From the NCBI GenBank assembly GCA_963817885.1, contig CAWFQE010000004.1, positions 21,419 through 85,418 of the forward strand: 64,000 bases of DNA. The letters run 5' to 3'. The notes under the pieces are model-generated. The model ran no database searches. It saw only the letters and a list, made by a program, of their open reading frames with translations, and had not been told where the DNA came from. This document shows positions 10,245 through 64,000 of this stretch, piece after piece. How positions within the stretch are numbered: position 1 is the stretch's first letter; the number at the start of each line of letters is the position of its first letter. The stretch comes from an uncultured Acidobacteriota bacterium (GTDB taxonomy: Bacteria; Acidobacteriota; Vicinamibacteria; Vicinamibacterales; JAKQTR01). The position numbers and the translations under genes were made by a program.

Positions 10245-10446
10245 ACTCTGTGCAAGTAACGCCCTGAGTACCTATTCTTACCTCAGAAGCCGGCACACTG
10301 GACCGAGGAAAGCCGTCATTTGCTCCATGGCTGGCGGCGTATCGGACGTAGTCCTTGGTCTTCGCGGACTCGATGTCGCCCGGGGCATTCGCGGATTGAT
10401 GTAGCCCGGGGTCTTTAGACCCCGGGTCTGGAGTTTCTACATATTG

Positions 10447-12178: not shown

Positions 12179-12295
12179 CGGCGGCTCCTGATGTGACCGC
12201 ACCAGGATGCCACATCAACGTCGGTCTGTCAACACTATATATGACCGACCGACTCAAATGTAGAAACTCCAGGCCCGGGGTCTTTAGACCCCGGG

Positions 12296-12540
12296 TTTGG
12301 GCGGCCTACATCGGAAGGGATCGCGCCGGGCGCCAGCGGTGTCCGCCGGGTCTAAAGACCCGGCCCACATCGGAAGAAGGGGCCTACACCTGAAGGTGCT
12401 ACCGCTCTGATTGATGTCGCCCGGGGAGTTCGCGGACTCGATGTAGCCCGGGGTCTTCAGACCCCGGGATCGAGCGTGCGCCAGCCGTGTCCGCCGGGTC
12501 TAAAGACCCGGCCGACATTGGAAGGGATCGCGCGGGCCGC
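12296..12540. repeat. Cluster of REP-like hairpins (GTAG/CTAC-flanked palindromes)
   Basis: gtgtccgccgggtctaaagacccggcc.acat.ggaag occurs twice, at about 12338 and about 12486. gatgtcgcccgggg.gttcgcggactcgatgtagcccggggtcttcagaccccggg at 12411-12468 repeats the sequence at 10372-10426. Confidence 0.7.
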
Positions 12541-22089: not shown

Positions 22090-22111
22090 AGCGGCGAGCG
22101 CGGCGGATCTG

Positions 22112-22282
22112 GCCGGGTCTTTAGACCCGGCGGGTCCGGCGGCTCTGAAGAGCCGCCCTACATCAGATGAGCCGCCCTCCACCAGGCGGGAGCGTTCGGC
22201 TGTAGGCCGGGGCTTCAGCCCCGGCGGGTCCGGCGGCTCTGAAGAGCCGCCCTCCATCAGATGGGCCGCCCTCCACCAGGCG
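22112..22282. repeat. Two tandem ~90-nt REP-like units, each with two adjacent hairpins
   Basis: Hairpins gccgggtctttagacccggc (22112-22131) and ggcggctctgaagagccgcc (22138-22157) are followed by ctacatcagatg.gccgccctccaccaggcg. The unit repeats from 22202 with gtag + gccggggcttcagccccggc + ggcggctctgaagagccgcc. Confidence 0.75.
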
Positions 22283-30053: not shown

Positions 30054-30140
30054 CTACTTGCCAGGACTCTAGCACGGGTCCAAGGCCCGGCGCCAGAATT
30101 CACGCCTCGAGCCGCCGGCCGCGAGCCGTCGGTCATGGGA

Positions 30141-30296
30141 GATTGATGTAGGGCGGCTCTTGAGAGCCGCCGGATTCGCCGGGTCTTTAGATTCATGTAG
30201 GGCGGCTCTTGAGAGCCGCCGGACTCGCCGGGTCTTTGGATTGATGTAGGGCGGCTCTTTAGAGCCGCCGGACTCGCCGGCCCTGAAGGGCCGGCG
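30141..30296. repeat. Three tandem 49-bp REP-like units
   Basis: GTAG heads at 30148, 30197 and 30246 give an exact 49-nt period. Each is followed by the hairpin ggcggctct[tgag/ttag]agccgcc and then cgg.ctcgccgggtcttt. The last unit ends in gccggccctgaagggccggc. Confidence 0.8.
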
Positions 30297-33609: not shown

Positions 33610-33656
33610 GGTAATCAGCGTCGGGATTATACATCGCGACGCTGAACGGCCGGAGC

Positions 33657-33899
33657 AGGTTACAGGTTACAGGTTACAGGTTACAGGTTACAGGGTGCAC
33701 GCTGTCAGGTTACAGGCCACGGGCTGTGGGCCACCAACGGGACACGATGTGTTTTGACCATGGCCCAAAGCCTGTAGCCTGCAGCGTGCATCGTGCTGCC
33801 TGTAGCCTGCAGCGTGCATCGTGCTGCGTGTAGCCTGCAGCGTGCATCGTGCTGCGTGTAGCGTGCGTTCTGTAACCTGTAACCTATAACCTGTAACCT
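33657..33899. repeat. Intergenic element with complementary heptamer-array arms and an internal 28-nt tandem repeat
   Basis: (AGGTTAC)x5 at 33657-33691. The complementary arm (GTAACCT/ATAACCT)x4 is at 33872-33899. tgtagcctgcagcgtgcatcgtgctgc[c/g] starts at 33773, 33801 and 33829, with a partial copy at 33857. Confidence 0.85.
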
Positions 33900-34761
33900 A
33901 CTTCATGATCGTCGCCTTCACCTCGATGGTGATCTTCCGGTCGCTCAGCGCGTCGGAGGATTGCGCAACGACCAGCGGCACACCGCTGTCCAGGACGACC
34001 GCGAGGCTTTCCGAGACCGAGGTGTTGCCGCCCGGGATTCCTTCCGCCGGCGGATCGTCGAGGAGGTTGTACTCCAGCGTGAAGTCGACCCAGATCTTGT
34101 TGCCTTCAACCGAGGGCCTGACATCGATCGACAACGGGGCCTGGCGCCGTTCCGTTGATGGTCCCACCTTCTGGAAATACGACGCGTTGGTGCGAATCCG
34201 GCTGAACTCCCCGCTCCCGATCGTCATCGCCATCGACTTCTTCGTCGGCGGCTTGCTCCCGAGCTGATCGGTGATGGTGAATTCGACTTTGACCGCGATC
34301 ATCTTCCGGGGCTCCGCCCTGACGACTTTCGGGGCCGCCTGCGCAACGGCAGCTGGCGCTGGTACCGGCATCGCGACCTTGGGGGCCTGCCCGGGAGCCG
34401 GCGGGGGCGGCGGTGGCGGCGGCACCTGATCGTCGGCCACATCGGGAGGAGCTGGCGGCTCCATCGCGATTTCCGGCCTCACCGTTGCACGAGGCGACAT
34501 CGGCGCCTGTGCGGGCCTCGGCATTGGCGGCGTCGGCGCGACCTGCGGCACGGCAGCGAACCGGGCCGGGGCAGGCGCGGGCATGACCGGCATCGGTGCC
34601 ATGGCGGGACTCGGCAAAGTGGCCAGCGTCGCCGGCATCACGGCAGGGGCCCCTGTGGGCGCGGGCGGTGCCGTTGCGGGGACCGGCATCTGGGCCAGAG
34701 CGAGCGCAGGCAGAAGTATCAGGGCAACAGCGGCGAACATGACGAAACGTGGAGCTTTCAT
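33898..34761 (-). CDS. Secreted proline/alanine-rich protein with a beta-rich C-terminal domain
   Basis: Signal peptide MKAPRFVMFAAVALILLPALALAQ, a ~130-aa Pro/Ala-rich tract, then IAVKVEFTITDQLGSKPP...KITIEVKATIMK. Its start overlaps the stop of the upstream gene. Confidence 0.5.
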   Translation of the reverse strand: MKAPRFVMFAAVALILLPALALAQMPVPATAPPAPTGAPAVMPATLATLPSPAMAPMPVMPAPAPARFAAVPQVAPTPPMPRPAQAPMSPRATVRPEIAMEPPAPPDVADDQVPPPPPPPPAPGQAPKVAMPVPAPAAVAQAAPKVVRAEPRKMIAVKVEFTITDQLGSKPPTKKSMAMTIGSGEFSRIRTNASYFQKVGPSTERRQAPLSIDVRPSVEGNKIWVDFTLEYNLLDDPPAEGIPGGNTSVSESLAVVLDSGVPLVVAQSSDALSDRKITIEVKATIMK

Positions 34762-36321: not shown

Positions 36322-36460
36322 GGCTTGGCGAATCGCACTGCGGCCCGGACCCTGTGCAATCTCGAATTTGTGAACCGTGTCAGGGCCGGAAGGCAGCAGC
36401 ACTCAGCAGATCCCGCGATGTGCCGCAGGACCATCCGGGCCGCAGTGGGGTTCGCCAGGC
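36322..36460 (+). ncRNA. ffs: Signal recognition particle RNA (4.5S-type)
   Basis: The conserved domain-IV core gtcagggccggaaggcagcagc matches the E. coli 4.5S GUCAGGUCCGGAAGGAAGCAGC. The 5-prime arm ggcttggcgaatcgcactgcggcccgga pairs with the 3-prime arm tccgggccgcagtggggttcgccaggc. The position directly upstream of dnaX-ybaB-recR is a common synteny. Confidence 0.8.
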
Positions 36461-48227: not shown

Positions 48228-49255
48228 CCGCGCAGGCTCCTTCCCGTGTGGTGCAGGAACAAATTCTCGAGGCTCGGCTCGGAGATGTGGACGTCGTGAA
48301 TGGTGGCCCCCGCCGCGCTCGCCGCGGAGACAATCTGCGGGATGAGCGTGCCGCCCTGGTCGGCGAACAGATCGACCCCGCCGGGCGGCTGGGCTTTCAC
48401 TTCGGTCACGCCGGCAATCTGCGCGAGGCGCGCGGTCAACCCGTCGCTCACCTCGTCGAACGACAGCCGCAGCAGGAAGCCCCCGGGCACCGACCGCTTC
48501 AACTCCGCGGGCGAGCCCATCGCGATCACGCGCCCGTGGTCGATGATCGCGAGCCGGTGGCACAGCGCGTCGGCTTCCTCCATGTTGTGCGTCGTCAGGA
48601 GGACGGTGTGGCCGCTCCGGTTGAAGTCCGCGATGAGGTCCCACAGCATCAGGCGCGTCTGGGGATCGAGCCCGGTGCTGGGCTCGTCGAGAAACAGCAC
48701 CTGGGGATCGTGCATCAGCGCCCGGGCGATCGAGAGGCGCTGCATCATGCCGCCCGAGAAGCCGGTCACCATCTGATCGGCGCGATCGGTGAGCTTGAAG
48801 CGATCGAGCAGTTCAGCCGCCCGGGCCCGGGCGTCGGCGGCCGGGATCCCGAAATAGGCCGCGTGGAACATCAGGATCTCGCGCGCCGTCAGCGCGAAGT
48901 CCAGGTTCGGTTTCTGCGGCACGACGCCGATCAGGCGCTTGACCGTCGAGTGATCGCGCCACACGTCCAGGCCGCCGATGAACGCCTTCCCGCCGGTCGG
49001 GCGGATGCGCGTGGTGAGCACGCCCACCGTGGTGGACTTGCCGGCGCCGTTCGGGCCGAGCAGGCCGAAAATCTCGCCGGGACTGACCTCGAGCGAGACG
49101 CCATCGAGCGCCACGACCTCGTATTTCTTCTTCTCGCGGCGCTTGAAGAACTTCACGCCCGTCATCGGCCCGCCGCGCACGATGGCGCCGGCAGGCGGCG
49201 GAGAGGTGTAGATCTTGCGGAGAGAGTCGATGCGGATGCCGACGTCCATGGGCAT
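48224..49255 (-). CDS. ABC transporter ATP-binding protein (DrrA/ABC-2 type)
   Basis: Walker A GPNGAGKST, signature FSGGMMQRLSIARAL, Walker B VLFLDEPSTGLD and H-loop LLTTHNMEEA. The frame is intact at 343 aa. Confidence 0.85.
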   Translation of the reverse strand: MPMDVGIRIDSLRKIYTSPPPAGAIVRGGPMTGVKFFKRREKKKYEVVALDGVSLEVSPGEIFGLLGPNGAGKSTTVGVLTTRIRPTGGKAFIGGLDVWRDHSTVKRLIGVVPQKPNLDFALTAREILMFHAAYFGIPAADARARAAELLDRFKLTDRADQMVTGFSGGMMQRLSIARALMHDPQVLFLDEPSTGLDPQTRLMLWDLIADFNRSGHTVLLTTHNMEEADALCHRLAIIDHGRVIAMGSPAELKRSVPGGFLLRLSFDEVSDGLTARLAQIAGVTEVKAQPPGGVDLFADQGGTLIPQIVSAASAAGATIHDVHISEPSLENLFLHHTGRSLRG

Positions 49256-49530
49256 AGGTTATAGGTTACAGGTTACAGGTTACAGGGGACAGGTTACAGG
49301 GGACAGGTCACAGGCTATTGGTTGACCGCTGCCCTTGCCAGGCCGTAGCGCGACAGCGCGAAGGTGGGAGCCGTGAGCCGTGAGCGTTGTGCCGCGCGCA
49401 ATGCCGCCCTGCGCGGTGACTGCACCCCGGGTCGAGAGCCCTGAGAATTTCTTGTCGTCGTAAACGCCGCCTTGCGAGTGCATCATCGGCCGTTCACCCT
49501 GTAACCTATAACCTGTACCCTGTAACCTCT
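49254..49530. repeat. Intergenic element with complementary heptamer-array arms (A[TC]AGGNN / ..CCTGTAA)
   Basis: About 10 heptads ataggtt ataggtt acaggtt acaggtt acagggg acaggtt acagggg acaggtc acaggct attggtt at 49254-49323. The complementary arm accctgt aacctat aacctgt accctgt aacctct is at 49496-49530. The element fills the divergent intergenic region. Confidence 0.85.
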
Positions 49531-49562
49531 CCTCCCCGGCGTCCGTGTATGATCCCCCTACC

Positions 49563-52607: not shown

Positions 52608-52686
52608 GTCGCCGGCGGGCGGCTCGCGGCCCTTCGACTCGCCAAGCTCGCTCAGGGCAGGCTGGCGGCTGACGTGTCACATGGAG

Positions 52687-52732
52687 GCCGGGGCTTCAGC
52701 CCCGGCGAGTCTGGCGGCTCTGAAGAGCCGGC
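52687..52732. repeat. REP-like double hairpin
   Basis: gccggggcttcagccccggc (52687-52706) followed by ggcggctctgaagagccgg (52713-52731). These are the same two hairpin types as at 22202-22251. Confidence 0.7.
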
Positions 52733-52973
52733 TCGCTCCGGCGAGCGTGCGTGTCATGAGCCCGGGACTGTCAGCCTCGCCGCTGGTCTGGCGCTGGATT
52801 CGCGGCCCTTCGGCTCGCGTGCTCTGGTGCCGCCTTCCGTCGCGGCACCAGGGCATCGCCGCATTTGACCCGGCCTCCTCCGATTCGCCAGAATCACTCG
52901 AGAGGCCCCGGGCGCCCCGATGGCCGTCCGGGCCGGTCGTTCGTCCCGATTACCATTCGACCAAAGGATTGCC

Positions 52974-54515: not shown

Positions 54516-54590
54516 TCCTCAGTAGCTCAATGGCAGAGCATCCGGCTGTTAACCGGAGGGTTGCAGGTTCGAGTCTTGCCTGAGGAGCCA
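54516..54590 (+). tRNA. tRNA-Asn (anticodon GTT)
   Basis: Cloverleaf by hand: acceptor TCCTCAG/CTGAGGA, D-arm GCTC-AATGGCA-GAGC, anticodon arm TCCGG-CTGTTAA-CCGGA, variable GGGTT, T-arm GCAGG-TTCGAGT-CTTGC, discriminator G, encoded CCA. Confidence 0.9.
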
Positions 54591-54813
54591 ATCCTTTCAA
54601 CAACTTCCAAGCATCAGCTTCGCGCCATCCCCCGACTTTGCCCTTTTTCGTGCCCGGTTCTATTGGTGTTGTTGAGAAGGCGTCGAAGTCAACCGGATGC
54701 TCGCAGACTTCGCGGTCTTGCCGTCAACCGGCGCCCTGGCAATCAGTTGACCTGAAAGGACATTGTCGCGAGGCGAAGGTGGAGGCGGTGCCGCTGTTGC
54801 CGCTCGTTGACGC

Positions 54814-55647
54814 TTACAGAACACTCAATAGCTTCTGCACAAGCTCGAACGCGCGCCGTGCCTGCATGGCGCGTTCGTTCCCGTCGCTCGAATCGTGGAA
54901 GACCGCAAGCTGTCGCGGCCCGTAGAAGTCGACGGACTGGAACTTCTCGCGCAGGATCCGAATCCCCTCCACCACCAACGCATCATCGGAACGCGATCGC
55001 CAGTCATCGCCGACAACCGTGATCGCGTTCGGGAACTCGTCCAGGCAGTAACAGATGTCGTACACGTCTTTCGGTTTGTCTCTGCCGTTGACCGCATGCG
55101 CCTTCATGATGATGAAATCGGGGAGCGACGCGACTCGCAGGTGCACGGTGTTCGATGCACCTGAGATCATCGGACCCTCGAACTCGACGATCGCGGGGCG
55201 GCGGAGCGCGGCGGCGCATGAAGGAACCTGCAGAACCCTGAAGTCGCCGACAAGCTTCGGGCGATTCTTCTTCATCTTCACGTCGGCGGGTGCCAGGAAC
55301 TCAACGTCCACCCGGACGGGCGCCTCGGCGTCCTTGAGGTCGACCGTCGTTACGAGCTGGAACGTCTTGTCGCCCTTTTCATAGCGGCCGGTGTCGAACA
55401 AAAGCCCCAAGAGCTCCGCGTATCGTCCGTCGGCGAGCTTCTGCGCGTCGAGCGCGAGATCGACGTCGATGCTCCCGACGTGCGCCGTCCCCGGCGCGGG
55501 GATGATGAGATCGGGCACCCACCCCCCAACCACGACGATCGCATCGCGGAACGAACCCAGCACCTGGGCAACGTCGACGAGTACACGGCGAGCCGCCTCA
55601 ACCTGCCGGTTGGTGTAATCGCCTTCGTAGAGTGGTTCGTGGCTCAT
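54814..55647 (-). CDS. AbiEii/AbiGii-like nucleotidyltransferase (type IV TA toxin family)
   Basis: ATG at 55647 (MSHEPLYEGDY) overlaps the upstream stop (ATGA). NTase motif VVVGGWVPDLI...GSIDVDLAL. C-terminal family motif IIMKAHAVNGRDKPKDVYDICYCL (K..A...R...K/RD.YD). Confidence 0.65.
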   Translation of the reverse strand: MSHEPLYEGDYTNRQVEAARRVLVDVAQVLGSFRDAIVVVGGWVPDLIIPAPGTAHVGSIDVDLALDAQKLADGRYAELLGLLFDTGRYEKGDKTFQLVTTVDLKDAEAPVRVDVEFLAPADVKMKKNRPKLVGDFRVLQVPSCAAALRRPAIVEFEGPMISGASNTVHLRVASLPDFIIMKAHAVNGRDKPKDVYDICYCLDEFPNAITVVGDDWRSRSDDALVVEGIRILREKFQSVDFYGPRQLAVFHDSSDGNERAMQARRAFELVQKLLSVL

Positions 55648-56786
55648 GCCTTGACCGCCGCCCAAGCTGGCTTCAGCCGTTGCCGCAGAATCGCTTCCGC
55701 GGCCTCCTCGCCGCGAGCGCCGGCGTGAACGACATCGACGTAGGTCTGTACCGGGTTCGTGCACGACAGCCGATTGACGCCGGCGTCCGGCCTGTAGAGG
55801 ACCCCCGGATCACCGGGGAGCAGCACGATCACGTTCTCGCCAGAGTCCACGCGCTTTGCTTCCACCGTTGATTCGAATTCCTGCTCTATTCCCGGTTGCA
55901 TGTAGAGCCAGGTGCGGGGCTGCCGGACTGCTGGCGCCTGCAGATCCGCGGCTGAAAAGACCGCGTAGGAAAGGCGTCCGAGGCCTCCCGGGTCAATGGC
56001 TCGCAGTCGGTCTCGAAGAGCGGACCCCTGCAAGAGCGTGAAGTAGGGGCGTCGCTCGTGGCGCTCGAATCGATACGCGGATCGCCACGCCTGCAGCAGT
56101 CCGTCGAAGTCGTGAACGCAAAAGCCGCGATTGGGCATGGGCTCGAGGAACGCCTGGTCGCGCAAGTGCTGAACGACCTTGTTGACGAGCGCAAGGCTCG
56201 GCGCAGGAACACGCGGAACAAGGTCCGCGAAGTGCGCAACCATGTCGCGCTGAGTCCACCGGCGGCCGGCGTTCTCCGGCGCCAGTAGCGCACGAACCAC
56301 GCGGGCGGCTTCGGGGGTGCCCAGGTTCGCGCCCGACCGCCGCGAGATCTTGACCGGCTCTTTCCCCGAATGATCGATGTGCAGGAGGCCCGGTACGTCA
56401 AGGCGACAGTTGCCCGCCGAGTCGTACCAGCTCCAGCCCCGCTCGCGACACAGGGCCGCCATCCGCGGAGACACGCGCGGCATTGCGAGGACCCTCGCGC
56501 AGACGGCATCCTCGCTAGCGGAGCAAGGGCGATCGGCAATACTGGAGAACTGGACCGGTTGGAAACTGAGACTCTTACACTCGACCCAGAGCACCGCGTT
56601 TCCGCGCCCAGGCACGCTTCCGGAAACGCGCAAGTCCCAGCCAGGCTGCGTCCTTGGCGCTGACGCTACGGACCAGTTCTTCAGCCATGAAACCTCGCCC
56701 AGCAGATTCTGCAGGGTCTCTGCGAGTTGTCGCTCCAGGGCCGATCCATGGATCTGCTCTATGTTCACGACTGAGCCATTGTTCAC
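55644..56786 (-). CDS. AbiEi-like antitoxin/regulator with an N-terminal PD-(D/E)xK nuclease-like extension
   Basis: GTG start at 56786. The N-terminus has GWDLRV...AVLWVECKS (D...E-x-K pattern). A central winged-helix-like segment follows (RVVRALLAPENAGRRWTQRDMVAHF...LVNKVVQHLRDQAFLE). The C-terminus ..VIVLLPGDPGVLYRPD...CTNPVQTYVDVVHAGARGEEAAEAILRQ is typical of AbiEi-family C-terminal domains. Confidence 0.6.
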   Translation of the reverse strand: MNNGSVVNIEQIHGSALERQLAETLQNLLGEVSWLKNWSVASAPRTQPGWDLRVSGSVPGRGNAVLWVECKSLSFQPVQFSSIADRPCSASEDAVCARVLAMPRVSPRMAALCRERGWSWYDSAGNCRLDVPGLLHIDHSGKEPVKISRRSGANLGTPEAARVVRALLAPENAGRRWTQRDMVAHFADLVPRVPAPSLALVNKVVQHLRDQAFLEPMPNRGFCVHDFDGLLQAWRSAYRFERHERRPYFTLLQGSALRDRLRAIDPGGLGRLSYAVFSAADLQAPAVRQPRTWLYMQPGIEQEFESTVEAKRVDSGENVIVLLPGDPGVLYRPDAGVNRLSCTNPVQTYVDVVHAGARGEEAAEAILRQRLKPAWAAVKA

Positions 56787-56816
56787 AACATTGTGAACAT
56801 ATCACGTGTAGTGAAC
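56763..56816. promoter_or_regulatory. Nested inverted GTTCAC/GTGAAC half-sites overlapping the AbiEi-like start codon (candidate operator)
   Basis: GTTCAC at 56763. The palindrome GTTCACA-acat-TGTGAAC spans 56781-56798. GTGAAC at 56811. The outer half-sites sit 18 nt from the inner ones on each side. The region is visibly AT-richer than its surroundings. Confidence 0.5.
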
Positions 56817-57007
56817 ACAATTCAAATACTGCCTATATTCGGCGCGATCCATGCTCTGGAAGAGCTGCTCGAGACGACGCCCGGGCGGCCGTTGACAGCG
56901 CGCGCCTCCGCGCGTGCCGAGGCGTTCCTCGCGGTTGTGCTACTACGATTACTAGCGCACAACATCATTGTGTGTAGTATAGGTCATGGACACAACGGCG
57001 GAGCGTC

Positions 57008-58528
57008 ATGGCCTACGTCCGTAAACGCGGCAACCAGCTGGCCATCGTTCACGGGGAGCGGGAGCCGGGAACCGGTAAGGTGCAGCAGCGGATCCTGTTT
57101 ACCATTTACTCCAAGGCCGAGGCCCTCGAGATCCTCGGCCGCGGGAAGAACCAAGGCCGCTGGAACTTCGAGGGACTGTTTCGACAGCAGTTCACCGACG
57201 TCAAGGTCGACTGGAACGACATCCGGCGAGGGATCGAGGAGAACCTGGACTCCCTGCCAGATCTTCATGAGTACCGCTCGGAACGTCTGCGCGGGCGGTT
57301 CCGCGACGATCTGTGCACCTTCACGAAGCAACTCATACTTGCCGATCCACAGGATCTGATTTCCTCGGCCCATCTCATCACGGAGCATCGGCACGAGCTC
57401 GAGTACTTGACGGACCTCATTGCCTGGCGTCTCAAGCTGCGGGACCAGGAGCCCACCGAGTGGAACGAGGACAACCTGTTCTACTGGCGCTTCGCCTTGC
57501 AGGGCCGATCCGTGCCGCCAGACACGGAGGAACACGCTGCCGGCTTGTACGAGCGCGGCGAATACGACAAGGCCGACGCCGTCTTCCGGCTGCTGGTCGA
57601 CTGCTTTGATGGGTATGCCGAGGGCTACAACTACCTGGGTCTTATCGCCTACCAGCAGGGCAAGCTCGAGGAGGCGGTCGCGCGCTTCGAGAAGACCACC
57701 GAGCTTGGGCGCAAGTCCTTCCCTGCTCGCATTCCCAAGAAGCGCTACTGGAGTGACCACACCACGCGGCCCTACATGCGCGGCCTGCGGAACCTCGCTT
57801 TGACGCTCAACGAGGCCGGCAGGTACGACGAGGCAGTGACGGTCTGCAATCGCCTCCAGAACGAGTGCGGGGACGACTTCAGCGCGGCCTCCCACCGTGC
57901 AGCCATCTACCTCAACATGGGGAAGTGGGAGCAGGCCGCGGACTTCGCGAAGCGCTCGGGTGGCGATCTGGATCCCGCAGCTGGGTTCGTGGAGGCGTTC
58001 GCGCTCTTCGAGCTCGGGCGCGTCGAAGAAGCTCTCCCCGCGTTCGTACGCGCAGCGCTCAGTTCGCCGCGCGCCGCGCGCATGCTGGTCGGCGAGCGAA
58101 CGGCGGCGCCCAAGTGCTCCGAGGACGCCGAGGACCACAATACCGGCGTCTCCGAGCGCCGGCGACTGCGCGCCTACCTCGAGGATCAGCCTCGGAACGC
58201 GAAGAAGTTCTTCCGCGCTCTGGTCCGCGATCCGCGTGTGGCCAAGTTGCTCGATCAGAGCACGGCGGTCGTCCGGCGCTGGCACGAGGAGCACCATACG
58301 GGTGACCGCTCGGCCTTCGATCAGATGACGCTGGATCCGCTCGCGCGCGTTCGCTGCGGCGGAGGGGCGGAAGCTGCTCGACCTTCTCCCTCGTTCTGCG
58401 AAGTCGACACCACGATCGGCTCCACGCGACCCGAAGTGAGAGCCTCAGCGACCGAACGCCGATCTCGAACGACTATCTTGGGTGCGCTCGGGCACTGCCA
58501 CGAAGAGAAACCGTCGCGACGAACATGA
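57008..58528 (+). CDS. Protein with integrase Arm-type-like N-terminus and TPR repeats; the last ~70 codons are doubtful
   Basis: MAYVRKRGNQLAIVHGEREPGTGKVQQRILFTIYSKAEALE resembles the N-terminal Arm DNA-binding domain of tyrosine integrases (.RKRGN.W......G....F.TK.EA). TPR-like repeats follow (YAEGYNYLGLIAYQQGKLEEAVARFEKTTELG; LRNLALTLNEAGRYDEAVTVCNRL; AAIYLNMGKWEQAADFA). The tail from about 58320 is Arg/Ser/Gly-rich and not protein-like. Confidence 0.55.
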   Translation: MAYVRKRGNQLAIVHGEREPGTGKVQQRILFTIYSKAEALEILGRGKNQGRWNFEGLFRQQFTDVKVDWNDIRRGIEENLDSLPDLHEYRSERLRGRFRDDLCTFTKQLILADPQDLISSAHLITEHRHELEYLTDLIAWRLKLRDQEPTEWNEDNLFYWRFALQGRSVPPDTEEHAAGLYERGEYDKADAVFRLLVDCFDGYAEGYNYLGLIAYQQGKLEEAVARFEKTTELGRKSFPARIPKKRYWSDHTTRPYMRGLRNLALTLNEAGRYDEAVTVCNRLQNECGDDFSAASHRAAIYLNMGKWEQAADFAKRSGGDLDPAAGFVEAFALFELGRVEEALPAFVRAALSSPRAARMLVGERTAAPKCSEDAEDHNTGVSERRRLRAYLEDQPRNAKKFFRALVRDPRVAKLLDQSTAVVRRWHEEHHTGDRSAFDQMTLDPLARVRCGGGAEAARPSPSFCEVDTTIGSTRPEVRASATERRSRTTILGALGHCHEEKPSRRT

Positions 58529-58959
58529 TACCCTGGAGCGCGAGATCGAGCTCGCCCTCAGTCCCGGTGGCTTCATTTCCGACCGCGCGTGCTTTTCGTT
58601 CGGGAGCGAGCTCGAGGAAACGGCAACGAAGATCGCGACGCTCACAGACAGCTCGGGTTCATAGCGGGCTTCGAGCGGCTCGCCGCAGGTGCGCGCCACC
58701 GACCAGAACGGTCATTTCTCGATCGGGCCAAAGCGCGCTGGCCCAGACGTTGATCTGGACGACGTCGAAGGTGTCTGGCCGCGGTTCGCAAGGCGGCTGA
58801 TCTCGCGCACTCCTGCGGCACCGGGTGTGATGAGTCGCCCGCCGCTGGACCGCGCCGCGGCCGACGTTCCGGGCACCAGCACGACCGGGCGGCGTCTGTT
58901 ATCTCTCTCTCTGCGAGCCGATCACCGCTCGCACACGACAGGATGCAAAGCACGAGATC

Positions 58960-60801
58960 ATGAACAACGATGATTTGCTCCCGTCGCCGTGGGCCCGGCC
59001 GGCGACGCTCCGCGCCGCACTTGAGGAGCGCTACAACGGCGAAGCGCTCCGCCGGCTCGCGCAGGCGCTGGGTGTGGCCGGGCCGACCCGCAAAGCGGAT
59101 CTGGCGGCGGCCATCGCGGCGGCGGTCTTAGGTCCGGACCCCAGCAGTCCTCGGCCGAAAGATGTCTTCGCCAGACTGACCGATATCGAAAAGGCGGCGG
59201 TGGCCGAAGCGCTCTGCGACGAGAACCACACCTTCGACGCGCCACGGTTTCGCGCCAAGTACGGATCGGTGCCGGTCTGGTCCTCGCCACGGGGCACGCG
59301 CGAAGGCAAAACGCTGCTCGGCGTGTTCCTGATGCCGGGCAAGTTCGATCGCGAGCCGGACGAACCGTTCATCCCCGCCGATCTGGCCACCCGCTTGCGC
59401 CAGTTCGTGCCGGAGCCTCGCAAGGAAGCGCTCGGTTGTCTCACCGAACCGGTGCCGGTGAACGATGGTCCGCCGCTCACGGTCGTCGACACCGAACAAG
59501 CGGCCACCCGGGAGGTCTTCGGCGTGCTGCGGTTGGTGGACATGGGCAAGATCCAGGTCAGCGCCCAGACGCGTCGGCCGTCGGCCAAGGGAATGGCTGC
59601 TGTCAGGGAGGTGCTGGTCGGCGGCGACTTCTATCCGTCGGAGGAGAGGCAACACGGGTGGGAGCAAGAGATCGGGTCGATTCGGGCGTTTGCCTGGCCG
59701 CTCCTCGTGCAGGCGGCTGGCCTTGCCTCGGTCGCCGGCTCGAAGCTTGCCCTGACCTCTGCGGGACGCAGGGCCCTGACGCAACCAGCGGCCGAGACGC
59801 TGCGGCACGCGTGGAAGAAGTGGGTCGACACCTCGATCTTCGACGAGTTTTCCCGGGTGGACGCCATCAAGGGACAGAGCGATCGCAAGCGTCTGACGTC
59901 TGTCGCCGGTCGGCGGCACGCGATCGCCGACGCGCTGGCGGAGTGCCCGGTGGGAGCGTGGATTGCGATCGGTGAGCTGTCGAGGCACATGCGCGCGACC
60001 GGCAACACCTTCGAGGTTGCGCACGATCCGTGGAAGCTGTACATCGCGGAGATGCAGTACGGAAGTCTGGGCTACGACGGCAGCCACGCCTGGGGGATCC
60101 TGCAAGAGCGCTACATGATGGCGCTGCTGTTCGAATACGCAGCCACGCTGGGCCTGGTGGATGTCGCCTATGCGGCTCCTGAAGGCGCGAGAAGAGACTT
60201 CCGGTCCATGTGGGGAACCGATGATCTGGCCTTCTTGAGTCGGTACGACGGGTTTTCCTGCCTGCGACTCACCGGCCTCGGCGCGTTCTGTCTCGACGTC
60301 GCCGACAACCTCGAGACGACAGCGATCGCACCGACGAGCCGCGTGAGCGTTCTGCCGAGTCTCGACATCGTAGCGGATTCCGGACCGTTCGACCCGGGCG
60401 ACGAAACGTATCTGTCTACCTTCTGCGTGAGGCGCGGCGACGGCTTCGGCCTCGATCGTGCCACTGCCCTGGCGGCCATCGAGAAGGGGCACCGCGCGAG
60501 CGATCTGGTCCGTTTCCTCGAGGAGGCGTGTGGCGATGCACTCCCGGACTGTGCGCGGACGTTTCTCGCAGACCTGGAGCGCCGGGCGGCGATGCTCTCT
60601 GTCGCGGGTCATGCCCTGCTGATCGAATGCGCGGACCCGGACCTTGCTTCCCGTCTCGTCCGCGACACGAAGACCAGGCACCTGTGCACCGTGGCGGAGA
60701 ACGGGAGCATCATCGTTCCAGCGGAATCGGAGGTGGCCTTCAGGCGAGCCGTGCAGGCGCTCGGCTATCCGTTGCTCTCCGGCACGCGGGGGCGTGACTG
60801 A
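58960..60801 (+). CDS. SAP/HeH-like N-terminus plus XPB/Ssl2 N-terminal (helicase-associated) domain protein, without a helicase core
   Basis: The frame is intact at 613 aa. The N-terminus ALRRLAQALGVAGPTRKADLAAAIAAAVLG is SAP/HeH-like. The C-terminus ..VRFLEEACGDALPDCARTFLADLERRAAMLSVAGHALLIECADPDLASRLVRDTKTRHLCTVAENGSIIVPAESEVAFRRAVQALGYPL resembles the XPB damage-recognition-type module. No Walker motifs were seen. Confidence 0.5.
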   Translation: MNNDDLLPSPWARPATLRAALEERYNGEALRRLAQALGVAGPTRKADLAAAIAAAVLGPDPSSPRPKDVFARLTDIEKAAVAEALCDENHTFDAPRFRAKYGSVPVWSSPRGTREGKTLLGVFLMPGKFDREPDEPFIPADLATRLRQFVPEPRKEALGCLTEPVPVNDGPPLTVVDTEQAATREVFGVLRLVDMGKIQVSAQTRRPSAKGMAAVREVLVGGDFYPSEERQHGWEQEIGSIRAFAWPLLVQAAGLASVAGSKLALTSAGRRALTQPAAETLRHAWKKWVDTSIFDEFSRVDAIKGQSDRKRLTSVAGRRHAIADALAECPVGAWIAIGELSRHMRATGNTFEVAHDPWKLYIAEMQYGSLGYDGSHAWGILQERYMMALLFEYAATLGLVDVAYAAPEGARRDFRSMWGTDDLAFLSRYDGFSCLRLTGLGAFCLDVADNLETTAIAPTSRVSVLPSLDIVADSGPFDPGDETYLSTFCVRRGDGFGLDRATALAAIEKGHRASDLVRFLEEACGDALPDCARTFLADLERRAAMLSVAGHALLIECADPDLASRLVRDTKTRHLCTVAENGSIIVPAESEVAFRRAVQALGYPLLSGTRGRD

Positions 60802-60989
60802 GGCCGGGTCGTTCGACGGCGGCGCGCGACGTTGCCCTTCTCTTGCCCTTTCGGTGCACCAAACGCCGGCAAACGGCCGCAACGAGCGGCACAACGCGAA
60901 GGCCGAAATCCGGGCGTCTCCGGGGGCTGGGATGCGAGATCCGGCAGCCCCGGGCAAACCGACGCAAAGCGCGGCTAACGACGCTTTTT

Positions 60990-61119
60990 CCGCCTGTTAA
61001 CCGGAGGGTTGTCCGCCTCCGCTCGCCACGCTGAAGGTACGGCGAGCTACGGCGAGACCACGCCGTAGCTCCGTCTGCGGAGCGAAGGCGGGCAGGTTCG
61101 AGTCCTGCCTGAGGAGCCA
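60990..61119 (+). other. Partial direct copy of the tRNA-Asn 3-prime half, interrupted by an 80-nt hairpin insert (candidate att scar or tRNA-like element)
   Basis: ccgcCTGTTAACCGGAGGGTTG (60990-61011) and GCAGGTTCGAGTCCTGCCTGAGGAGCCA (61092-61119) match tRNA-Asn positions from the anticodon loop onward. Positions 61012-61091 are an insert with an 11-bp perfect stem (gagctacggcg/cgccgtagctc). No matching D-arm or 5-prime acceptor strand lies upstream. Confidence 0.7.
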
Positions 61120-61328
61120 ATCCCCTTTCTATTCAATCACTTCCACCGGTCAGCTGCGCTCACAACCATCCGGTCGCGAGAATCAGCATAAGTCATTCGT
61201 ATGCAGTTAGTTACGGCCGCGCCGCCGGGCCGCAGTGAATAATCGTGAACAATTCCGCGACCTCTTTACTGTCGTGTGTGTTGGGAGCATATTACTAATA
61301 GTGATAACGGGAACGAGGTGCCCTATGG

Positions 61329-61622
61329 ATGCGCGTTATCGCCAAGAAGACATTGCGTGACTTCTGGGACGTCCACCCTGACGCGGAAGAACCACTGCTC
61401 GCGTGGTACCGCGAAGTGGAACACGAGGACGGGGACACGCCCGCGAAGGCGAAGCAGAAGTACGCGAGTGCGAGCATCGTCGGAGACAACCGCGTTGTCT
61501 TCAATATCAAGGGCAACACGTACCGACTGGCCGTGAAGATCAACTACGCATATCGCGTTGTCTACATCCGGTTCGTGGGGACGCACGCGGAGTACGACGA
61601 GATCGACGTTAAGGAGATTTGA
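61329..61622 (+). CDS. higB: HigB-type (RelE-superfamily) mRNA interferase toxin
   Basis: MRVIAKKTLRDFWDVHPDAEEPLLAWYREVE...ASIVGDNRVVFNIKGNTYRLAVKINYAYRVVYIRFVGTHAEYDEIDVKEI matches the HigB_toxin family pattern almost position by position. Confidence 0.85.
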   Translation: MRVIAKKTLRDFWDVHPDAEEPLLAWYREVEHEDGDTPAKAKQKYASASIVGDNRVVFNIKGNTYRLAVKINYAYRVVYIRFVGTHAEYDEIDVKEI

Positions 61623-61624
61623 GC

Positions 61625-62845
61625 ATGAGCAAGATCAAAGCGATTCGGAACGACGCTGATCACGAGAAGGCGCTCGCCCGCATCGACGCGCTCATGGATG
61701 CTGATGCCGGTACGCCGGAAGGAGACGAACTCGACGTGCTGACTGACCTGGTCGAGCACTACGAGGAGAAGTCCGTTCCGATGGGGTTTCCGAGTGCGAT
61801 CGCCGCGATCGAGTTTCGGCTGGAGCAAGGAGGGCTGAACCCGCGAGATCTCGTCCCGTTCATCGGCAGCCGCGCCAAGGTGTCGGAAGTGCTTTCGGGC
61901 AAGAGACCGCTGACGATGCCGATGGCGCGCGCCCTTCACGAACATTTGGGGATCCCTGCAGATGTGCTCTTGCAGGGTTCAGGCGCGAAGTACGCAGAGC
62001 CGGCACGAGACCTCGACTGGGACCGCTTTCCGCTGAAAGCGATGGCGAGTCTCGGCTGGATTCCCAAGAGCCGCAATGTCCGATCGCGCGCCAAGGCTGT
62101 CATCACTGATCTGATCCGAAGGGCGGGAGGCGCCGAAGTTGCCGGCGCGGTCCTTTACCGCAAGAGTCAACACGTGCGAGCCAACGCCAAGACCGATTCG
62201 TATGCGCTCAGAGCGTGGTGCTGGAAGGTCCTCGCCGATGCCGATAAATGCCGCCCACGCGTGGGATACAAGCCGGGAACGGTCACCGTGGAGTTTCTCC
62301 GCGAACTCGCGCGACTGAGCTGGTCGGCCGAAGGGCCCCGGTTGGCCAAGGAGTACCTGGCGAAGCATGGCGTTCCCCTCGTTGCGGTTCCGCACCTGCC
62401 CAGGACGTACCTGGATGGCGCGGCACTCAAGCTGGCCGATGGGACACCGGTGATCGGACTCACGCTTCGCTACGACCGCGTTGACAACTTCTGGTTCTGC
62501 CTGCTGCACGAGCTCGCCCACGTCGGCCGTCACATGGATACAGACGGCGAGGCTTCCTTCGTTGACGACCTGACGCTCCGCAACGTCGAGGGAGGCCGCG
62601 AGGACCCGACCGAGGTTCAAGCAGATGAGTGGGCGGAGGAGGCGCTGATCCCTCGAGCCCTTTGGGAGACGAGCGCGGTGCGCAAGCGGCCGACTCCAAT
62701 GGCGGTGATCAGCCTGGCGAACGTCCTGCAGATCCACCCCGCGATCGTTGCCGGGCGGGTGCGCCACGAGCGCAGGAACTATCGACTGTTGTCGCAGTTC
62801 GTAGGCACCGGCCAGGTGCGGGTCCATTTCAACATGGCCGCTTGA
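61625..62845 (+). CDS. higA: HigA-type HTH antitoxin fused to an ImmA/IrrE-family (DUF955) zinc metallopeptidase domain
   Basis: The N-terminal ~130 aa is MSKIKAIRNDADHEKALARIDALMDA..GTPEGDELDVLTDLVEHYEEKSVPM...LVPFIGSRAKVSEVLSGKRPLTMPMARALHEHLGIPADVLL, a complete HigA with XRE HTH. The C-terminal ~270 aa contains FWFCLLHELAHVGRH (HExxH) plus a downstream E (EVQADEWAEEALIP). Confidence 0.75.
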   Translation: MSKIKAIRNDADHEKALARIDALMDADAGTPEGDELDVLTDLVEHYEEKSVPMGFPSAIAAIEFRLEQGGLNPRDLVPFIGSRAKVSEVLSGKRPLTMPMARALHEHLGIPADVLLQGSGAKYAEPARDLDWDRFPLKAMASLGWIPKSRNVRSRAKAVITDLIRRAGGAEVAGAVLYRKSQHVRANAKTDSYALRAWCWKVLADADKCRPRVGYKPGTVTVEFLRELARLSWSAEGPRLAKEYLAKHGVPLVAVPHLPRTYLDGAALKLADGTPVIGLTLRYDRVDNFWFCLLHELAHVGRHMDTDGEASFVDDLTLRNVEGGREDPTEVQADEWAEEALIPRALWETSAVRKRPTPMAVISLANVLQIHPAIVAGRVRHERRNYRLLSQFVGTGQVRVHFNMAA

Positions 62846-62935
62846 ATGCAGCGGAGCCTGAATGCGGCTCCAAGCGACGCTCCGAGTGGCTGATTCCTCG
62901 ACTTCACCTGGGAGGGCCTCGATGGCGGGCCTGAG

Positions 62936-63781
62936 GTGATGCGGAAAGGACGCAAGGGGCATCACCCTGGGAGGAGGAATGGTCAGGTCTCACCATTCGG
63001 CCTGCCGTGGGGCACGTACCGGACGGCAATTGCGGTGGAAGACCAGCCGTTGGTGAATCCTCGGCAGGACTTCGAGATCAAGGAGAATGGCCAGGCGACA
63101 TTGCTTCTGGATCTTCAGCCGGACCCGCGCCACATTGTGTTCACTGGTCCCCTCACGAGTCGGGTCAAGGAAGTTGTTGATTCCTCCACTATCGAGGCTA
63201 GGCCAGCTTCTGAGTGGCTGACTGATCCAGCGGTGCGCCCGAGCCGGCGCGCGTGCCTGCTGAACATTCTCGCCAAGGCGTCCTGTTTCCCATCGCGGTC
63301 CTATCCGTTCATCTCCCACATTCAGAGCAACTTTCTGGCCGCCCCCGATCGGATCTATGCGACGGTCGACTCCGAGCTGCAGCCGATGCTCGCGAAGCTC
63401 GCGGATGATCCCCGCAAACCGATCTACCACGAAGGCAGGCCGACATCCGCGTGCCACAAACGCCTGCTCGAAGTCGTGAAGCAGAAGGGACTTCCCGGCG
63501 CTGCCGCGGCGTACAAGCCGCTCGACAGTTATCGTCAAGAAGGCGGACCCTGTCTTCAGTTCGTCGTCGCCGATCCGGACGGCGTCGAAGCTCCGTCCTA
63601 CGCCGATATCGACATCGATCTCGGCAACCCTCTTCAGGATCTGGCCGGTCTTATCGTGCATGCTGGTGAAGTCTTGAGCGGAAGGCTGACTGACCACCTG
63701 GCTTTGCGCAAGACGCTCGGGAAGAACAGGCAGGTGGCTCAGTTCCTCTGTTATGACGTCGTCTCCGGGGCGCCCGCCTAG
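62936..63781 (+). CDS. Hypothetical protein, no recognisable family
   Basis: The frame is intact at ~280 aa with protein-like composition, 90 nt downstream of higA-immA on the same strand. GAGG precedes the ATG at 62939. Confidence 0.45.
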   Translation: MMRKGRKGHHPGRRNGQVSPFGLPWGTYRTAIAVEDQPLVNPRQDFEIKENGQATLLLDLQPDPRHIVFTGPLTSRVKEVVDSSTIEARPASEWLTDPAVRPSRRACLLNILAKASCFPSRSYPFISHIQSNFLAAPDRIYATVDSELQPMLAKLADDPRKPIYHEGRPTSACHKRLLEVVKQKGLPGAAAAYKPLDSYRQEGGPCLQFVVADPDGVEAPSYADIDIDLGNPLQDLAGLIVHAGEVLSGRLTDHLALRKTLGKNRQVAQFLCYDVVSGAPA

Positions 63782-63908: not shown

Positions 63909-64000
63909 CATGCTGCCCGTGCTGAAGTTCAAGAAGTCCCTGTTTGCCGAAATGCTCGACGGCGGCGAGCGGGAACCGTTCCTCGGCGGCAGCCGGTTGA
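63909..64000 (+). CDS. 5-prime end of an ORF truncated by the window edge
   Basis: The ATG at 63909 reads MLPVLKFKKSLFAEMLDGGEREPFLGGSRL.. with no stop before the window ends. It is too short to classify. Confidence 0.2.

What the first reader, a model, noticed from the sequence alone, without database searches (positions are those of the whole stretch)
60990..61119. tRNA-Asn 3-prime-half copy carrying an 80-nt highly structured insert exactly at the variable-loop/T-stem junction
Between ..GGAGGGTTG and GCAGGTTCGAG.., which are contiguous in the real tRNA, lies tccgcctccgctcgccacgctgaaggtacggcgagctacggcgagaccacgccgtagctccgtctgcggagcgaaggcgg. It folds by eye into a long arm. The outer stem is ccgcct/aggcgg plus cgctc/gagcg. 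The inner stem is a perfect 11-bp gagctacggcg/cgccgtagctc with a 6-nt loop, and tacggcgag is duplicated. The copy's T-stem (GCAGG/CCTGC) pairs better than that of the functional gene (GCAGG/CTTGC). This could be an att scar later hit by a tiny insertion. It could also be the product of a second integration event, or a tRNA-like RNA with a giant extra arm. It is not the position of known bacterial tRNA introns, which sit in the anticodon loop.
Basis: seen in the sequence. Interest (0 to 1): 0.55.

Follow-up and report, generated by a model that had tools for sequence, protein, structure and literature searches.

The report
Island-end tRNA scar carrying palindromic insert
The split tRNA-Asn copy is the leftover end-repeat of a small defence-gene island, and the 80-base hairpin inside it looks like a pair of the bacterium's own selfish palindromic repeats that has been inherited with this island end, not a new kind of tRNA.

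Summary
Positions 27-48 of the tRNA-Asn(GTT) gene (54516-54590) recur at 60989-61011 and positions 49-76 at 61092-61123. Exactly 80 strongly self-complementary bases (61012-61091) lie between them. The copy is the distal direct repeat of a 6.4-kb integrase-less island (AbiE, a TPR protein, a p52-like protein). A second island follows, starting with a PD-Lambda-2 defence system.

The insert is unique in the window and in about 460 kb of related DNA, and has no match in the phage and plasmid collections. It is not private to this genome, though. A homologous insert sits at the same junction, downstream of homologues of the same 613-aa gene, in two other metagenomic lineages (L027/L028, and a degraded copy in L016). 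Other relatives have an uninterrupted scar.

The insert consists of two GTAG-tailed hairpin units placed tail to tail inside a short GC palindrome. This is the layout of REP dimers, and the window holds at least ten other GTAG-type REPs.

My best reading (about 0.5) is a REP-like palindromic doublet that entered this island lineage's att region long ago and is a DNA-level passenger. No 5' tRNA half exists, and ARAGORN and Rfam find no RNA gene there. A functional tRNA-like RNA is therefore unsupported but not excluded.

The parts
54516..54590 (+). Intact tRNA-Asn(GTT) gene. It is the proximal repeat (attL side) of island 1.
   Evidence: ARAGORN; Rfam RF00005 67.2 bits; sequence.
54591..60988 (.). 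Island 1 (6.4 kb, no integrase found). It holds AbiEii 54814-55764(-), AbiEi 55644-56786(-), a TPR protein 57008-58528(+), and a 613-aa TFIIH-p52/XPB-N-terminal-like protein 58960-60801(+).
   Evidence: Pfam; PADLOC; AlphaFold pLDDT 82.5 and Foldseek E 3e-6 to p52/XPB chains. No recombinase family matched any ORF tested.
60989..61011 (+). Left piece of the partial tRNA copy: anticodon arm plus variable loop (tRNA positions 27-48/49). Identity is 22/23.
   Evidence: (D10). The single mismatch is at the last base of the 5' strand of the anticodon stem.
61012..61091 (.). The 80-nt dyad-symmetric insert, a REP-dimer-like module.
   Evidence: Folds. Unique in the window. Model R1 finds homologues only in L016 and L027/L028.
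61013..61018 (+). Outer palindrome, 5' arm CCGCCT. It pairs with 61086-61091 (AGGCGG).
   Evidence: Conserved in L016 (CCCGCCTCC/GGAGGCGGG) and L027 (CCGCC/GGCGG).
61021..61050 (-). Left GTAG unit, read on the - strand: GTAG (61050-61047) + CTCGCC + 13-nt loop + GGCGAG. This is hairpin H1 (61021-27/61041-47).
   Evidence: GTAG + 6-bp stem, loop 13; folds.
61048..61067 (.). Central hairpin H2: TACGGCG/CGCCGTA with loop AGACCA. It is formed by the two GTAG tails facing each other, and in this genome it extends to 11 bp (61044-61071).
   Evidence: pair probability 0.9995. The 3' arm CGCCGTA is identical in L016.
61065..61083 (+). Right GTAG unit: GTAG (61065-68) + CTCCG + TCTG + CGGAG. This is hairpin H3 (61068-73/61078-83).
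   Evidence: GTAG + stem 5, loop 4; folds.
61092..61123 (+). Right piece of the partial tRNA copy: T-arm, 3' acceptor strand and CCA, plus AATCC. Identity is 31/32, and the T-stem is fully Watson-Crick.
   Evidence: (D2).
61124..61180 (+). Flank that resembles the flank downstream of the tRNA gene (54591-54640). I read it as the left arm of a second, related island.
   Evidence: Alignment (columns 160-200).
61329..62845 (+). Start of island 2: PD-Lambda-2_A (HigB-like, 61329-61622) and PD-Lambda-2_B (61619-62845).
   Evidence: PADLOC E 1.4e-40 and 3.3e-143; Pfam HigB_toxin.

Best explanation
The locus is the distal direct repeat (an attR-type junction scar) left by integration of a genomic island into the 3' part of tRNA-Asn. 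The island has since lost its integrase, or never had one, and now carries defence and toxin-antitoxin genes. A second island follows it.

The 80 nt that split the scar at the variable-loop/T-stem junction are a REP-like palindromic doublet. It consists of two GTAG-tailed stem-loops placed tail to tail, nested in a short GC palindrome.

Inferred history: the module entered the att region of this island lineage once, by the kind of single-strand, duplication-free insertion ascribed to REP/REPIN elements moved by RAYT (IS200-like) transposases. It has since been inherited with the island end. It persists because it lies in dead DNA, or lies 5' of the crossover point, so the functional tRNA was never disrupted.

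It acts at the DNA level, if it acts at all. It is not part of a tRNA.

Shown: the scar, the island context, the anatomy of the insert, its uniqueness in the DNA searched, and its presence at homologous sites. Inferred: the REP/RAYT origin, a single ancestral insertion, and the lack of function.
For: (1) Scar and island. The tRNA gene and a partial copy in the same orientation lie 6.4 kb apart. Identity starts in the anticodon arm. The flanks downstream of the gene and of the copy are similar.

(2) The two tRNA pieces abut exactly, with no target duplication beyond one ambiguous G.

(3) Anatomy. The units are GTAG+CTCCG/TCTG/CGGAG on the + strand and GTAG+CTCGCC/13 nt/GGCGAG on the - strand, with their tails facing each other. 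This matches the published description of GTAG REPs: stem 5-13 bp, loop 2-20 nt. It also matches 'TT dimers' (GTAG inside), heterodimers, dimers that fold separately or as one large stem-loop, and REPs nested in small CCGSSCC...GGSSCGG palindromes (PMC3733652).

(4) The host genome is REP-rich. At least ten GTAG units with 8-9-bp stems and 4-nt loops lie at 10.4, 12.3-12.5, 22.1-22.3, 30.1-30.3 and 52.7 kb. GTAG-plus-hairpin occurs 37 times against 10-20 in shuffles.

(5) Homologous inserts at the same junction next to homologues of the 613-aa gene. L027/L028 match at E 5e-15. L016 gives a local alignment score of 37 against a shuffle mean of 16 (sd 2.6), and 48.7 bits, E about 1e-8, with the covariance model.

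(6) L016 holds a further inverted copy of the GCC..GCCGTAGCGCGGT unit 54 nt downstream of the module (I1). So the GTAG unit does recur as a repeat.

(7) In L027/L028 both GTAG tails are mutated (GTGG, AGAG) and the fold is weak (z -1.4 to -1.8). This is what a decaying passenger would look like.

(8) No RNA gene is called there.
Against: No second copy of this particular unit was found. This covers the 64-kb window, 460 kb of fetched relatives, the phage and plasmid collections, one genome per GTDB species searched for the exact inner hairpin, and protein space via spurious ORFs. REP families normally have tens to hundreds of copies.

I could not search the rest of this genome. No RAYT gene was seen in the window, though that test was weak.

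The stems (5-6 bp) are shorter than those of the window's abundant REPs (8-9 bp).

Window and L016 keep the same four-helix layout through four double compensatory changes. This hints at selection on structure rather than neutral passage.

The tRNA-derived flanks are almost perfect in this genome. That fits a recent integration whose attP already carried the module better than it fits an old insertion into a dead scar.
Confidence: 0.5

Rival explanations
1. The module is an integral, possibly functional part of this island family's attachment site. The island's attP carried [anticodon-arm remnant]-[80-nt module]-[T-arm core]. Crossover happens in or next to the T-arm, so the tRNA is rebuilt without the module, and the module always ends up in attR.
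For: The left tRNA piece and the start of the module are conserved between the window and L027 (18/18 and about 14/15). The T-arm immediately to the right differs by 7 of 19 bases, two of them as compensated pairs. The downstream genes also differ (PD-Lambda-2 versus a DUF6036 protein). This is the pattern expected if everything left of the T-arm travels with the island and everything right of it comes from the resident site. The copy in this genome is nearly undecayed. The four-helix layout is conserved between the window and L016.
Against: No integrase or other recombinase is in island 1. The adjacent 613-aa protein has a TFIIH-p52/XPB-N-terminal-like fold, not a recombinase fold. Related island ends have an uninterrupted scar (L021-L026, L042) or none within reach (L043-L048). 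No free attP was seen. The module is decaying in L027/L028. Four of the seven differences between those two contigs fall within 36 nt of it.
Confidence: 0.2
2. It is an unrelated one-off insertion, such as filler DNA or a palindrome born by template switching or slippage from att-derived sequence. Its resemblance to REPs is coincidental, and it has been inherited vertically in a dead scar.
For: It is single-copy everywhere I could search. It has an internal 10-nt tandem duplication (TACGGCGAG twice). The insert starts with TCCGCCT, the same 7 nt that start the left tRNA piece. Its last 22 nt match tRNA positions 27-48 in register at 13/22, and only 0.08% of window 22-mers do as well (D2, 90).
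Against: Gapped local alignment of the insert against tRNA 1-48 is not significant (p about 0.2). Two intact GTAG tails, each followed at once by a perfect hairpin, in a genome full of GTAG REPs, is a specific match. The L016 unit recurs in inverted copy. The compensatory changes argue against pure neutrality.
Confidence: 0.2
3. It is a functional structured RNA: a cloverleaf-like domain fused to a tRNA T-arm, 3' acceptor strand and CCA. It could act as a tRNA mimic, for example as a decoy or sensor for the island's tRNA-acceptor-modifying AbiEii/MenT-type toxin, or as a regulator of the neighbouring defence genes.
For: The fold is strong on the + strand. The window and L016 share an outer stem plus three adjacent hairpins, with 4 double compensatory changes. 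All 4 single transitions in the central hairpin of L016 and L027 give G-U on the + strand (about 1 in 16 by chance). DUF1814/AbiEii-family toxins modify tRNA 3' ends (PMC7450476, PMC10435456). An AbiEii gene is in island 1, and a weak AbiEii-like nucleotidyltransferase follows the L027 copy.
Against: There is no 5' acceptor strand, so no acceptor helix can form. No promoter-like site lies in 60700-61400. The module scores equally on both strands (46.6-48.9 bits), which is typical of a DNA palindrome. The T-arm and the third hairpin are decaying in L027/L028. Rfam and ARAGORN are negative. Only three lineages are available, and the pair counts are inflated by a model-fitted alignment that includes reverse-strand rows.
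Confidence: 0.07

Closest known systems
tRNA-gene fragments (attR scars) flanking integrated genomic islands, including tandem island arrays at one tRNA
   Same: One complete and one partial tRNA copy lie in the same orientation at the two ends of an island. Identity runs from the anticodon arm to the 3' end. A second island with a related left flank follows. PMC9897764 describes such partial genes as a routine product of integration.
   Different: The island has no integrase. The fragment is split by an 80-nt structured module, and homologous island ends in other lineages share that module.
GTAG-type REP elements as tail-to-tail (TT) dimers / REPIN-like doublets mobilised by RAYT transposases
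   Same: A GTAG tail is followed directly by a GC-rich stem-loop. Two units lie in inverted orientation with the GTAG tails inside. The pair is a heterodimer that can fold either as separate hairpins or as one long hairpin. It is extragenic, has no target duplication, and is nested in a small GC palindrome. The host genome carries many GTAG REPs.
   Different: Only one copy of this sequence type was found anywhere I could search. The stems are shorter than those of the genome's abundant REPs. No RAYT was seen. The site is inside a tRNA-derived scar.
PATE/MITE derivatives of IS200/IS605 (subterminal hairpins, insertion 3' of a short target, no duplication)
   Same: It is small, has a hairpin close to each end, leaves no target-site duplication, and has the same 4 nt (GTTG) to its left in all three lineages.
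   Different: No cognate IS was seen, and there are no further copies. The shared GTTG is equally well explained by common descent of the three loci.
Class II tRNAs with long variable arms, and intron-containing or split tRNA genes
   Same: Extra structured sequence sits between the variable region and the T-stem of a tRNA-derived sequence.
   Different: There is no 5' half. The 80 nt far exceed the 10-21 nt of known variable arms. Bacterial tRNA introns are group I introns in the anticodon loop (general knowledge). An intact tRNA-Asn gene sits 6.4 kb away.

Membership tests
attR-type tRNA fragment of an integrated island | Partial copy of the 3' part of a tRNA gene, in the same orientation as an intact copy of that gene, within island distance | tested here: met
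   22/23 plus 31/32 identity to the tRNA-Asn gene 6.4 kb upstream on the same strand.
attR-type tRNA fragment of an integrated island | Accessory or mobile gene content between the repeats | tested here: met
   AbiEii/AbiEi, a TPR protein and a p52-like protein lie between the repeats. Homologues of the 613-aa gene sit in BREX and toxin-antitoxin islands elsewhere.
attR-type tRNA fragment of an integrated island | An integrase gene inside the island | tested here: not met
   No recombinase family matched any island ORF. The window ends at 64000, so island 2 was not fully inspected.
GTAG REP / REPIN | Terminal GTAG followed by an imperfect palindrome (stem 5-13 bp, loop 2-20 nt) | tested here: met
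   Two units: stem 5-6 bp with loop 4, and stem 6-7 bp with loop 13. Criteria are from PMC3733652.
GTAG REP / REPIN | Two units in inverted orientation forming a larger hairpin (dimer/REPIN) | tested here: met
   The tail-to-tail arrangement has both a long-arm fold and a separate-hairpin fold within 2 kcal/mol of each other.
GTAG REP / REPIN | Many dispersed copies of the same unit in the genome | tested here: not met
   There are no other copies in the 64-kb window or in 460 kb of related loci. L016 has one extra inverted unit. The remainder of the genome was not available.
GTAG REP / REPIN | A cognate RAYT (IS200-like Y1 transposase) gene in the genome | not testable with these tools
   Only 64 kb of the genome is held. 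tblastn with remembered RAYT and IS200 sequences gave nothing, which is a weak test.
tRNA / tRNA-like RNA gene | Cloverleaf with an acceptor stem formed by the 5' and 3' ends, detectable by tRNA models | tested here: not met
   ARAGORN finds no gene there. Rfam finds nothing at gathering score. The best sub-threshold hit is tRNA-Sec at 17.6 bits against 47. No TCCTCAG partner for the 3' acceptor strand lies upstream.
Integron attC site | R'' RYYYAAC and R' GTTRRRY core sites bounding the palindrome | tested here: not met
   By reading the sequence, the flanks GTTGTCC and GTTCGAG do not fit GTTRRRY.

The most novel reading that the evidence does not exclude
The module plus the adjoining T-arm, acceptor strand and CCA is a conserved functional unit of this island family. 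It could be a transcribed tRNA-mimic RNA that interacts with the islands' tRNA-end-modifying AbiEii/MenT-type toxins or other defence proteins. Alternatively it could be a folded-DNA recombination site used by a recombinase that is not a classical integrase. Either would be a new class of island-borne element built from a tRNA fragment and a REP-like cloverleaf.
Probability: 0.07. Interest if true: 0.8.

Novelty: new member of a known kind. Interest (0 to 1): 0.3.

Why it matters
This case is mainly useful for annotation. A split tRNA fragment can look like an exotic tRNA, yet here it is an island boundary colonised by a palindromic repeat. It marks the junction of two defence islands at a tRNA-Asn hotspot in a Vicinamibacterales-like acidobacterium.

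The one unusual point is that the palindromic module is shared, at the same nucleotide junction, by homologous island ends in other lineages, and that its helices are kept through compensatory changes. If further genomes confirm this, the module could serve as a marker for this island family. It would also be a modest test case for whether REP-like elements become fixed parts of attachment sites.

Tried and rejected
- Exact inner hairpin (loop as N) in one genome per GTDB species: only a chance terminator-like hairpin in Adlercreutzia. This also showed that the window's genome is not in that collection.
- Metagenome scan for GGAGGGTTG-N60-90-GCAGGTTCGAGTC: 14 loci, none homologous. They were neighbouring tRNA genes, coding sequence, or tandem att-remnant arrays.
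- Three viral-contig scans: only chance matches.
- Phage and plasmid blastn: only T-arm hits.
- Exact-protein look-ups for four window proteins: not on record.
- Protein-space trick, translating the minus-strand ORF across the insert: no word hits. The only HMMER hits were BNR-repeat proteins matching 'RSADGxxxWS' by chance.
- 'The insert is a decayed tRNA 5' half or stacked scars': gapped alignment is not significant for the window. The exact 48|49 abutment makes a clean insertion more parsimonious. The in-register 13/22 match of its 3' end remains unexplained.
- 'The neighbouring 613-aa protein is the recombinase or a hairpin nuclease': its fold is TFIIH-p52/XPB-N-terminal-like.
- Integron attC, group II intron domain V and split-tRNA readings: rejected on sequence features.
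- Six further contigs with homologues of the 613-aa gene (L043-L048) have no scar within reach.

Full report
**1. Observation**

The window holds one tRNA gene, tRNA-Asn(GTT), at 54516-54590 (ARAGORN; Rfam 67.2 bits).
- 60989-61011 equals tRNA positions 27-48 (22/23).
- 61092-61123 equals positions 49-76 plus AATCC (31/32).
- Exactly 80 nt (61012-61091) lie between them, with a one-G ambiguity in the boundary.

The 80-mer folds far better than shuffles on both strands. As RNA, z is -4.1 to -4.5. As DNA, z is -5.1.

There are two near-isoenergetic folds:
- an outer stem closing three directly adjacent hairpins (-43.9 kcal/mol).

The second fold is the minimum-energy fold on the reverse strand and in the wider 138-nt context.

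**2. Context**

The 6.4 kb between the gene and the copy encode four proteins:
- AbiEii and AbiEi;
- a TPR protein;
- a 613-aa protein with a weak Helicase_C_3 match.

No integrase or other recombinase family matched any of these ORFs. A model of the 613-aa protein (pLDDT 82.5) resembles TFIIH p52 and the XPB N-terminal domain (Foldseek E 3e-6). It is not a recombinase.

After the copy come PD-Lambda-2_A (HigB-like, E 1.4e-40) and PD-Lambda-2_B (E 3.3e-143). About 45 nt after CCA are similar downstream of the gene and downstream of the copy.

The locus is therefore a tandem pair of defence islands at a tRNA-Asn hotspot. The copy is the junction scar between them. Homologues of the 613-aa protein come from Vicinamibacterales-type metagenome bins, so the host is probably an acidobacterium of that order.

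**3. Is the insert a repeated mobile mini-element?**

No second copy was found in any of these searches:
- the window;
- one genome per GTDB species, for the exact inner hairpin (the single hit is a chance hairpin);
- viral contigs;
- phage or plasmid records;
- 460 kb of fetched related DNA, by nhmmer;
- 166 kb of that DNA, by a covariance model built from the window's insert;
- protein space, via spurious ORFs.

The window's own genome is in none of the DNA collections, so the rest of that genome could not be searched.

**4. Homologous sites**

Contigs encoding close homologues of the 613-aa protein were fetched.

*L027/L028 (protein 80% identical).* The gene is followed by CTGTTAACCGGAGGGTTG, then a 73-nt insert starting TCCGCCTTCGCTCGC, then a T-arm and CTGAGGAGCCA. 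The match to the window is 74% over 127 nt, E 5e-15. The junctions are the same. The surrounding intergenic DNA does not align, and the downstream gene is different.

*L016 (77% identical; a BREX and toxin-antitoxin island).* It has a degraded version: GTTG | CCCGCCTCCG...CGCCGTAGC...CGGAGGCGGG | GAGGTCCG..CCTGCC.
- Local alignment score is 37, against a shuffle mean of 16 (sd 2.6).
- The covariance model gives 48.7 bits, E about 1e-8.

*Other relatives.* L021-L026 (76%) have an uninterrupted tRNA-like fragment 17 nt after the gene. L042 has an uninterrupted fragment at the island's other side. L043-L048 have none within reach.

The insert is therefore not a private accident of this genome. 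It belongs to one branch of a family of island ends.

**5. Structure conservation**

L016 folds (z -5.4) into the same outer stem plus three abutting hairpins. Relative to the window:
- the first and third hairpins each carry two double compensatory changes;
- the central hairpin carries two wobble changes;
- the covariance-model alignment marks all but one pair as canonical.

L027/L028 keep the outer stem, the first hairpin and most of the central one. Their third hairpin is degenerate and their fold is weak (z -1.4 to -1.8).

The formal pair count gives 93.9% of cells paired and 0 of 500 shuffles as good, with slid controls at 39-51%. This is inflated. The alignment was fitted to the model, and it includes reverse-strand rows that place the third hairpin on the first hairpin's columns.

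The model scores both strands alike. The object is a dyad-symmetric DNA module.

**6. Anatomy points to REPs**

Each half of the module is a GTAG tetranucleotide followed at once by a hairpin:
- + strand: GTAG-CTCCG-TCTG-CGGAG;
- - strand: GTAG-CTCGCC-13 nt-GGCGAG.

The two GTAG tails face each other and pair to form the central hairpin.

This is the format of GTAG-type REPs and of their tail-to-tail dimers. The published description also covers heterodimers, alternative folding, and nesting in small GC palindromes (PMC3733652). REPINs are defined as two inverted REPs mobilised by RAYTs (PMC3337134, abstract).

The same window carries at least ten GTAG REPs with 8-9-bp stems and 4-nt loops. 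In L016 the GCC..GCCGTAGCGCGGT unit recurs in inverted copy 54 nt away. In L027/L028 both GTAG tails are mutated.

Against membership:
- this sequence type is single-copy in everything I could search;
- its stems are shorter than those of the abundant REPs;
- no RAYT was seen (a weak test).

**7. How it most likely came about**

The exact abutment of tRNA positions 48 and 49, without any duplicated core, rules against a second site-specific integration. It fits a duplication-free insertion of a small palindromic element.

Two histories remain.

*(a) Insertion into the dead scar in an ancestor, followed by inheritance.*

*(b) Insertion into the island's attP, 5' of a T-arm crossover, so that every integration deposits the module in attR while rebuilding an intact tRNA.* History (b) is favoured by three points:
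- the left piece and the start of the module are conserved between the window and L027, while the T-arm and the downstream genes differ;
- the copy here is nearly undecayed;
- the single T/C difference at T-stem position 62 between the gene and the copy is consistent with an exchange upstream of that position.

History (b) is weakened by the absence of any recombinase and by related ends that lack the module. I cannot separate (a) from (b) with the data at hand.

**8. RNA reading**

No 5' acceptor or D-arm partner exists. No promoter-like site was found in 60700-61400. tRNA and Rfam models are negative. The T-arm in L027/L028 is decaying, and 4 of the 7 differences between those two contigs fall within 36 nt of the module.

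Two hints remain:
- the compensatory changes;
- the fact that all four single transitions in the central hairpin give G-U on the + strand (about 1 in 16 by chance).

AbiEii-family toxins modify tRNA 3' ends (PMC7450476, PMC10435456), which makes a tRNA-mimic idea conceivable. It remains unsupported.

**9. Verdict**

The scar-plus-insertion interpretation is right in outline. The insert is best read as a REP-like palindromic doublet inherited with this island end.

Novelty is low to moderate: an ordinary att scar combined with an ordinary class of repeat. The one non-trivial feature is the shared, structurally conserved module at homologous island ends. Interest is 0.3.

Noticed in passing
window 10401-10442, 12258-12524, 22111-22282, 30140-30300, 52686-52763: There is a dense population of GTAG-type REP elements. 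Each has GTAG plus an 8-9-bp GC stem and a 4-nt loop, often followed by a second hairpin. They occur as tandem 49-nt units and as inverted pairs. This implies an active or recently active REP/RAYT system in this genome.
   Followed up: partly
window 33642-33909 and 49248-49535: Arrays of a 7-nt repeat (AGGTTAC / CAGGTTA) occur in inverted arrangement, twice in the window and 15.6 kb apart, flanking short unique segments. Their nature is unknown.
   Followed up: no
window 61329-63781: The HigB-like gene and the 408-aa gene match PD-Lambda-2_A (E 1.4e-40) and PD-Lambda-2_B (E 3.3e-143). The following 281-aa ORF (62936-63781) matched nothing and may be a divergent third component.
   Followed up: partly
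window 58960-60801: The 613-aa 'helicase-associated' protein has a fold like TFIIH p52 and the XPB N-terminal domain (pLDDT 82.5; Foldseek E 3e-6). More than 2000 homologues were found. In the loci I fetched, they lie in toxin-antitoxin or BREX islands near tRNA scars. This may be an uncharacterised gene associated with defence islands.
   Followed up: partly
window 57008-57520: The N-terminus of the TPR protein (MAYVRKRGNQLAIVHGE...) looks like the arm-type DNA-binding N-terminus of phage integrases, but no catalytic domain follows and no family matched. This resemblance is from memory only.
   Followed up: no
L027 2781-2816 versus L028: Two near-identical contigs from different samples differ at 7 of 3964 positions. 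Four of those differences lie within 36 nt spanning the insert's centre and the T-arm. This may be a local mutation or recombination hotspot at the palindrome.
   Followed up: partly
L013 11089-11690 (also L004, L006, L011): In freshwater metagenome contigs, a tRNA-Arg(TCG) gene is followed by 2-4 tandem 123-nt hairpin-rich units. Each unit ends in the tRNA's last 28 nt. This is an array of att remnants of a different family.
   Followed up: partly
L017 5282-5355 and 7926-7969: In a Vicinamibacterales genome bin, a tRNA-Gln(CTG) gene is followed by a 2.6-kb ERCC4/HicAB islet and an uninterrupted 44-nt tRNA fragment. A second island follows, holding a 60%-identical homologue of the 613-aa gene.
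   Followed up: partly
window 36342-36444: A bacterial small SRP RNA gene (Rfam 69.3 bits).
   Followed up: no
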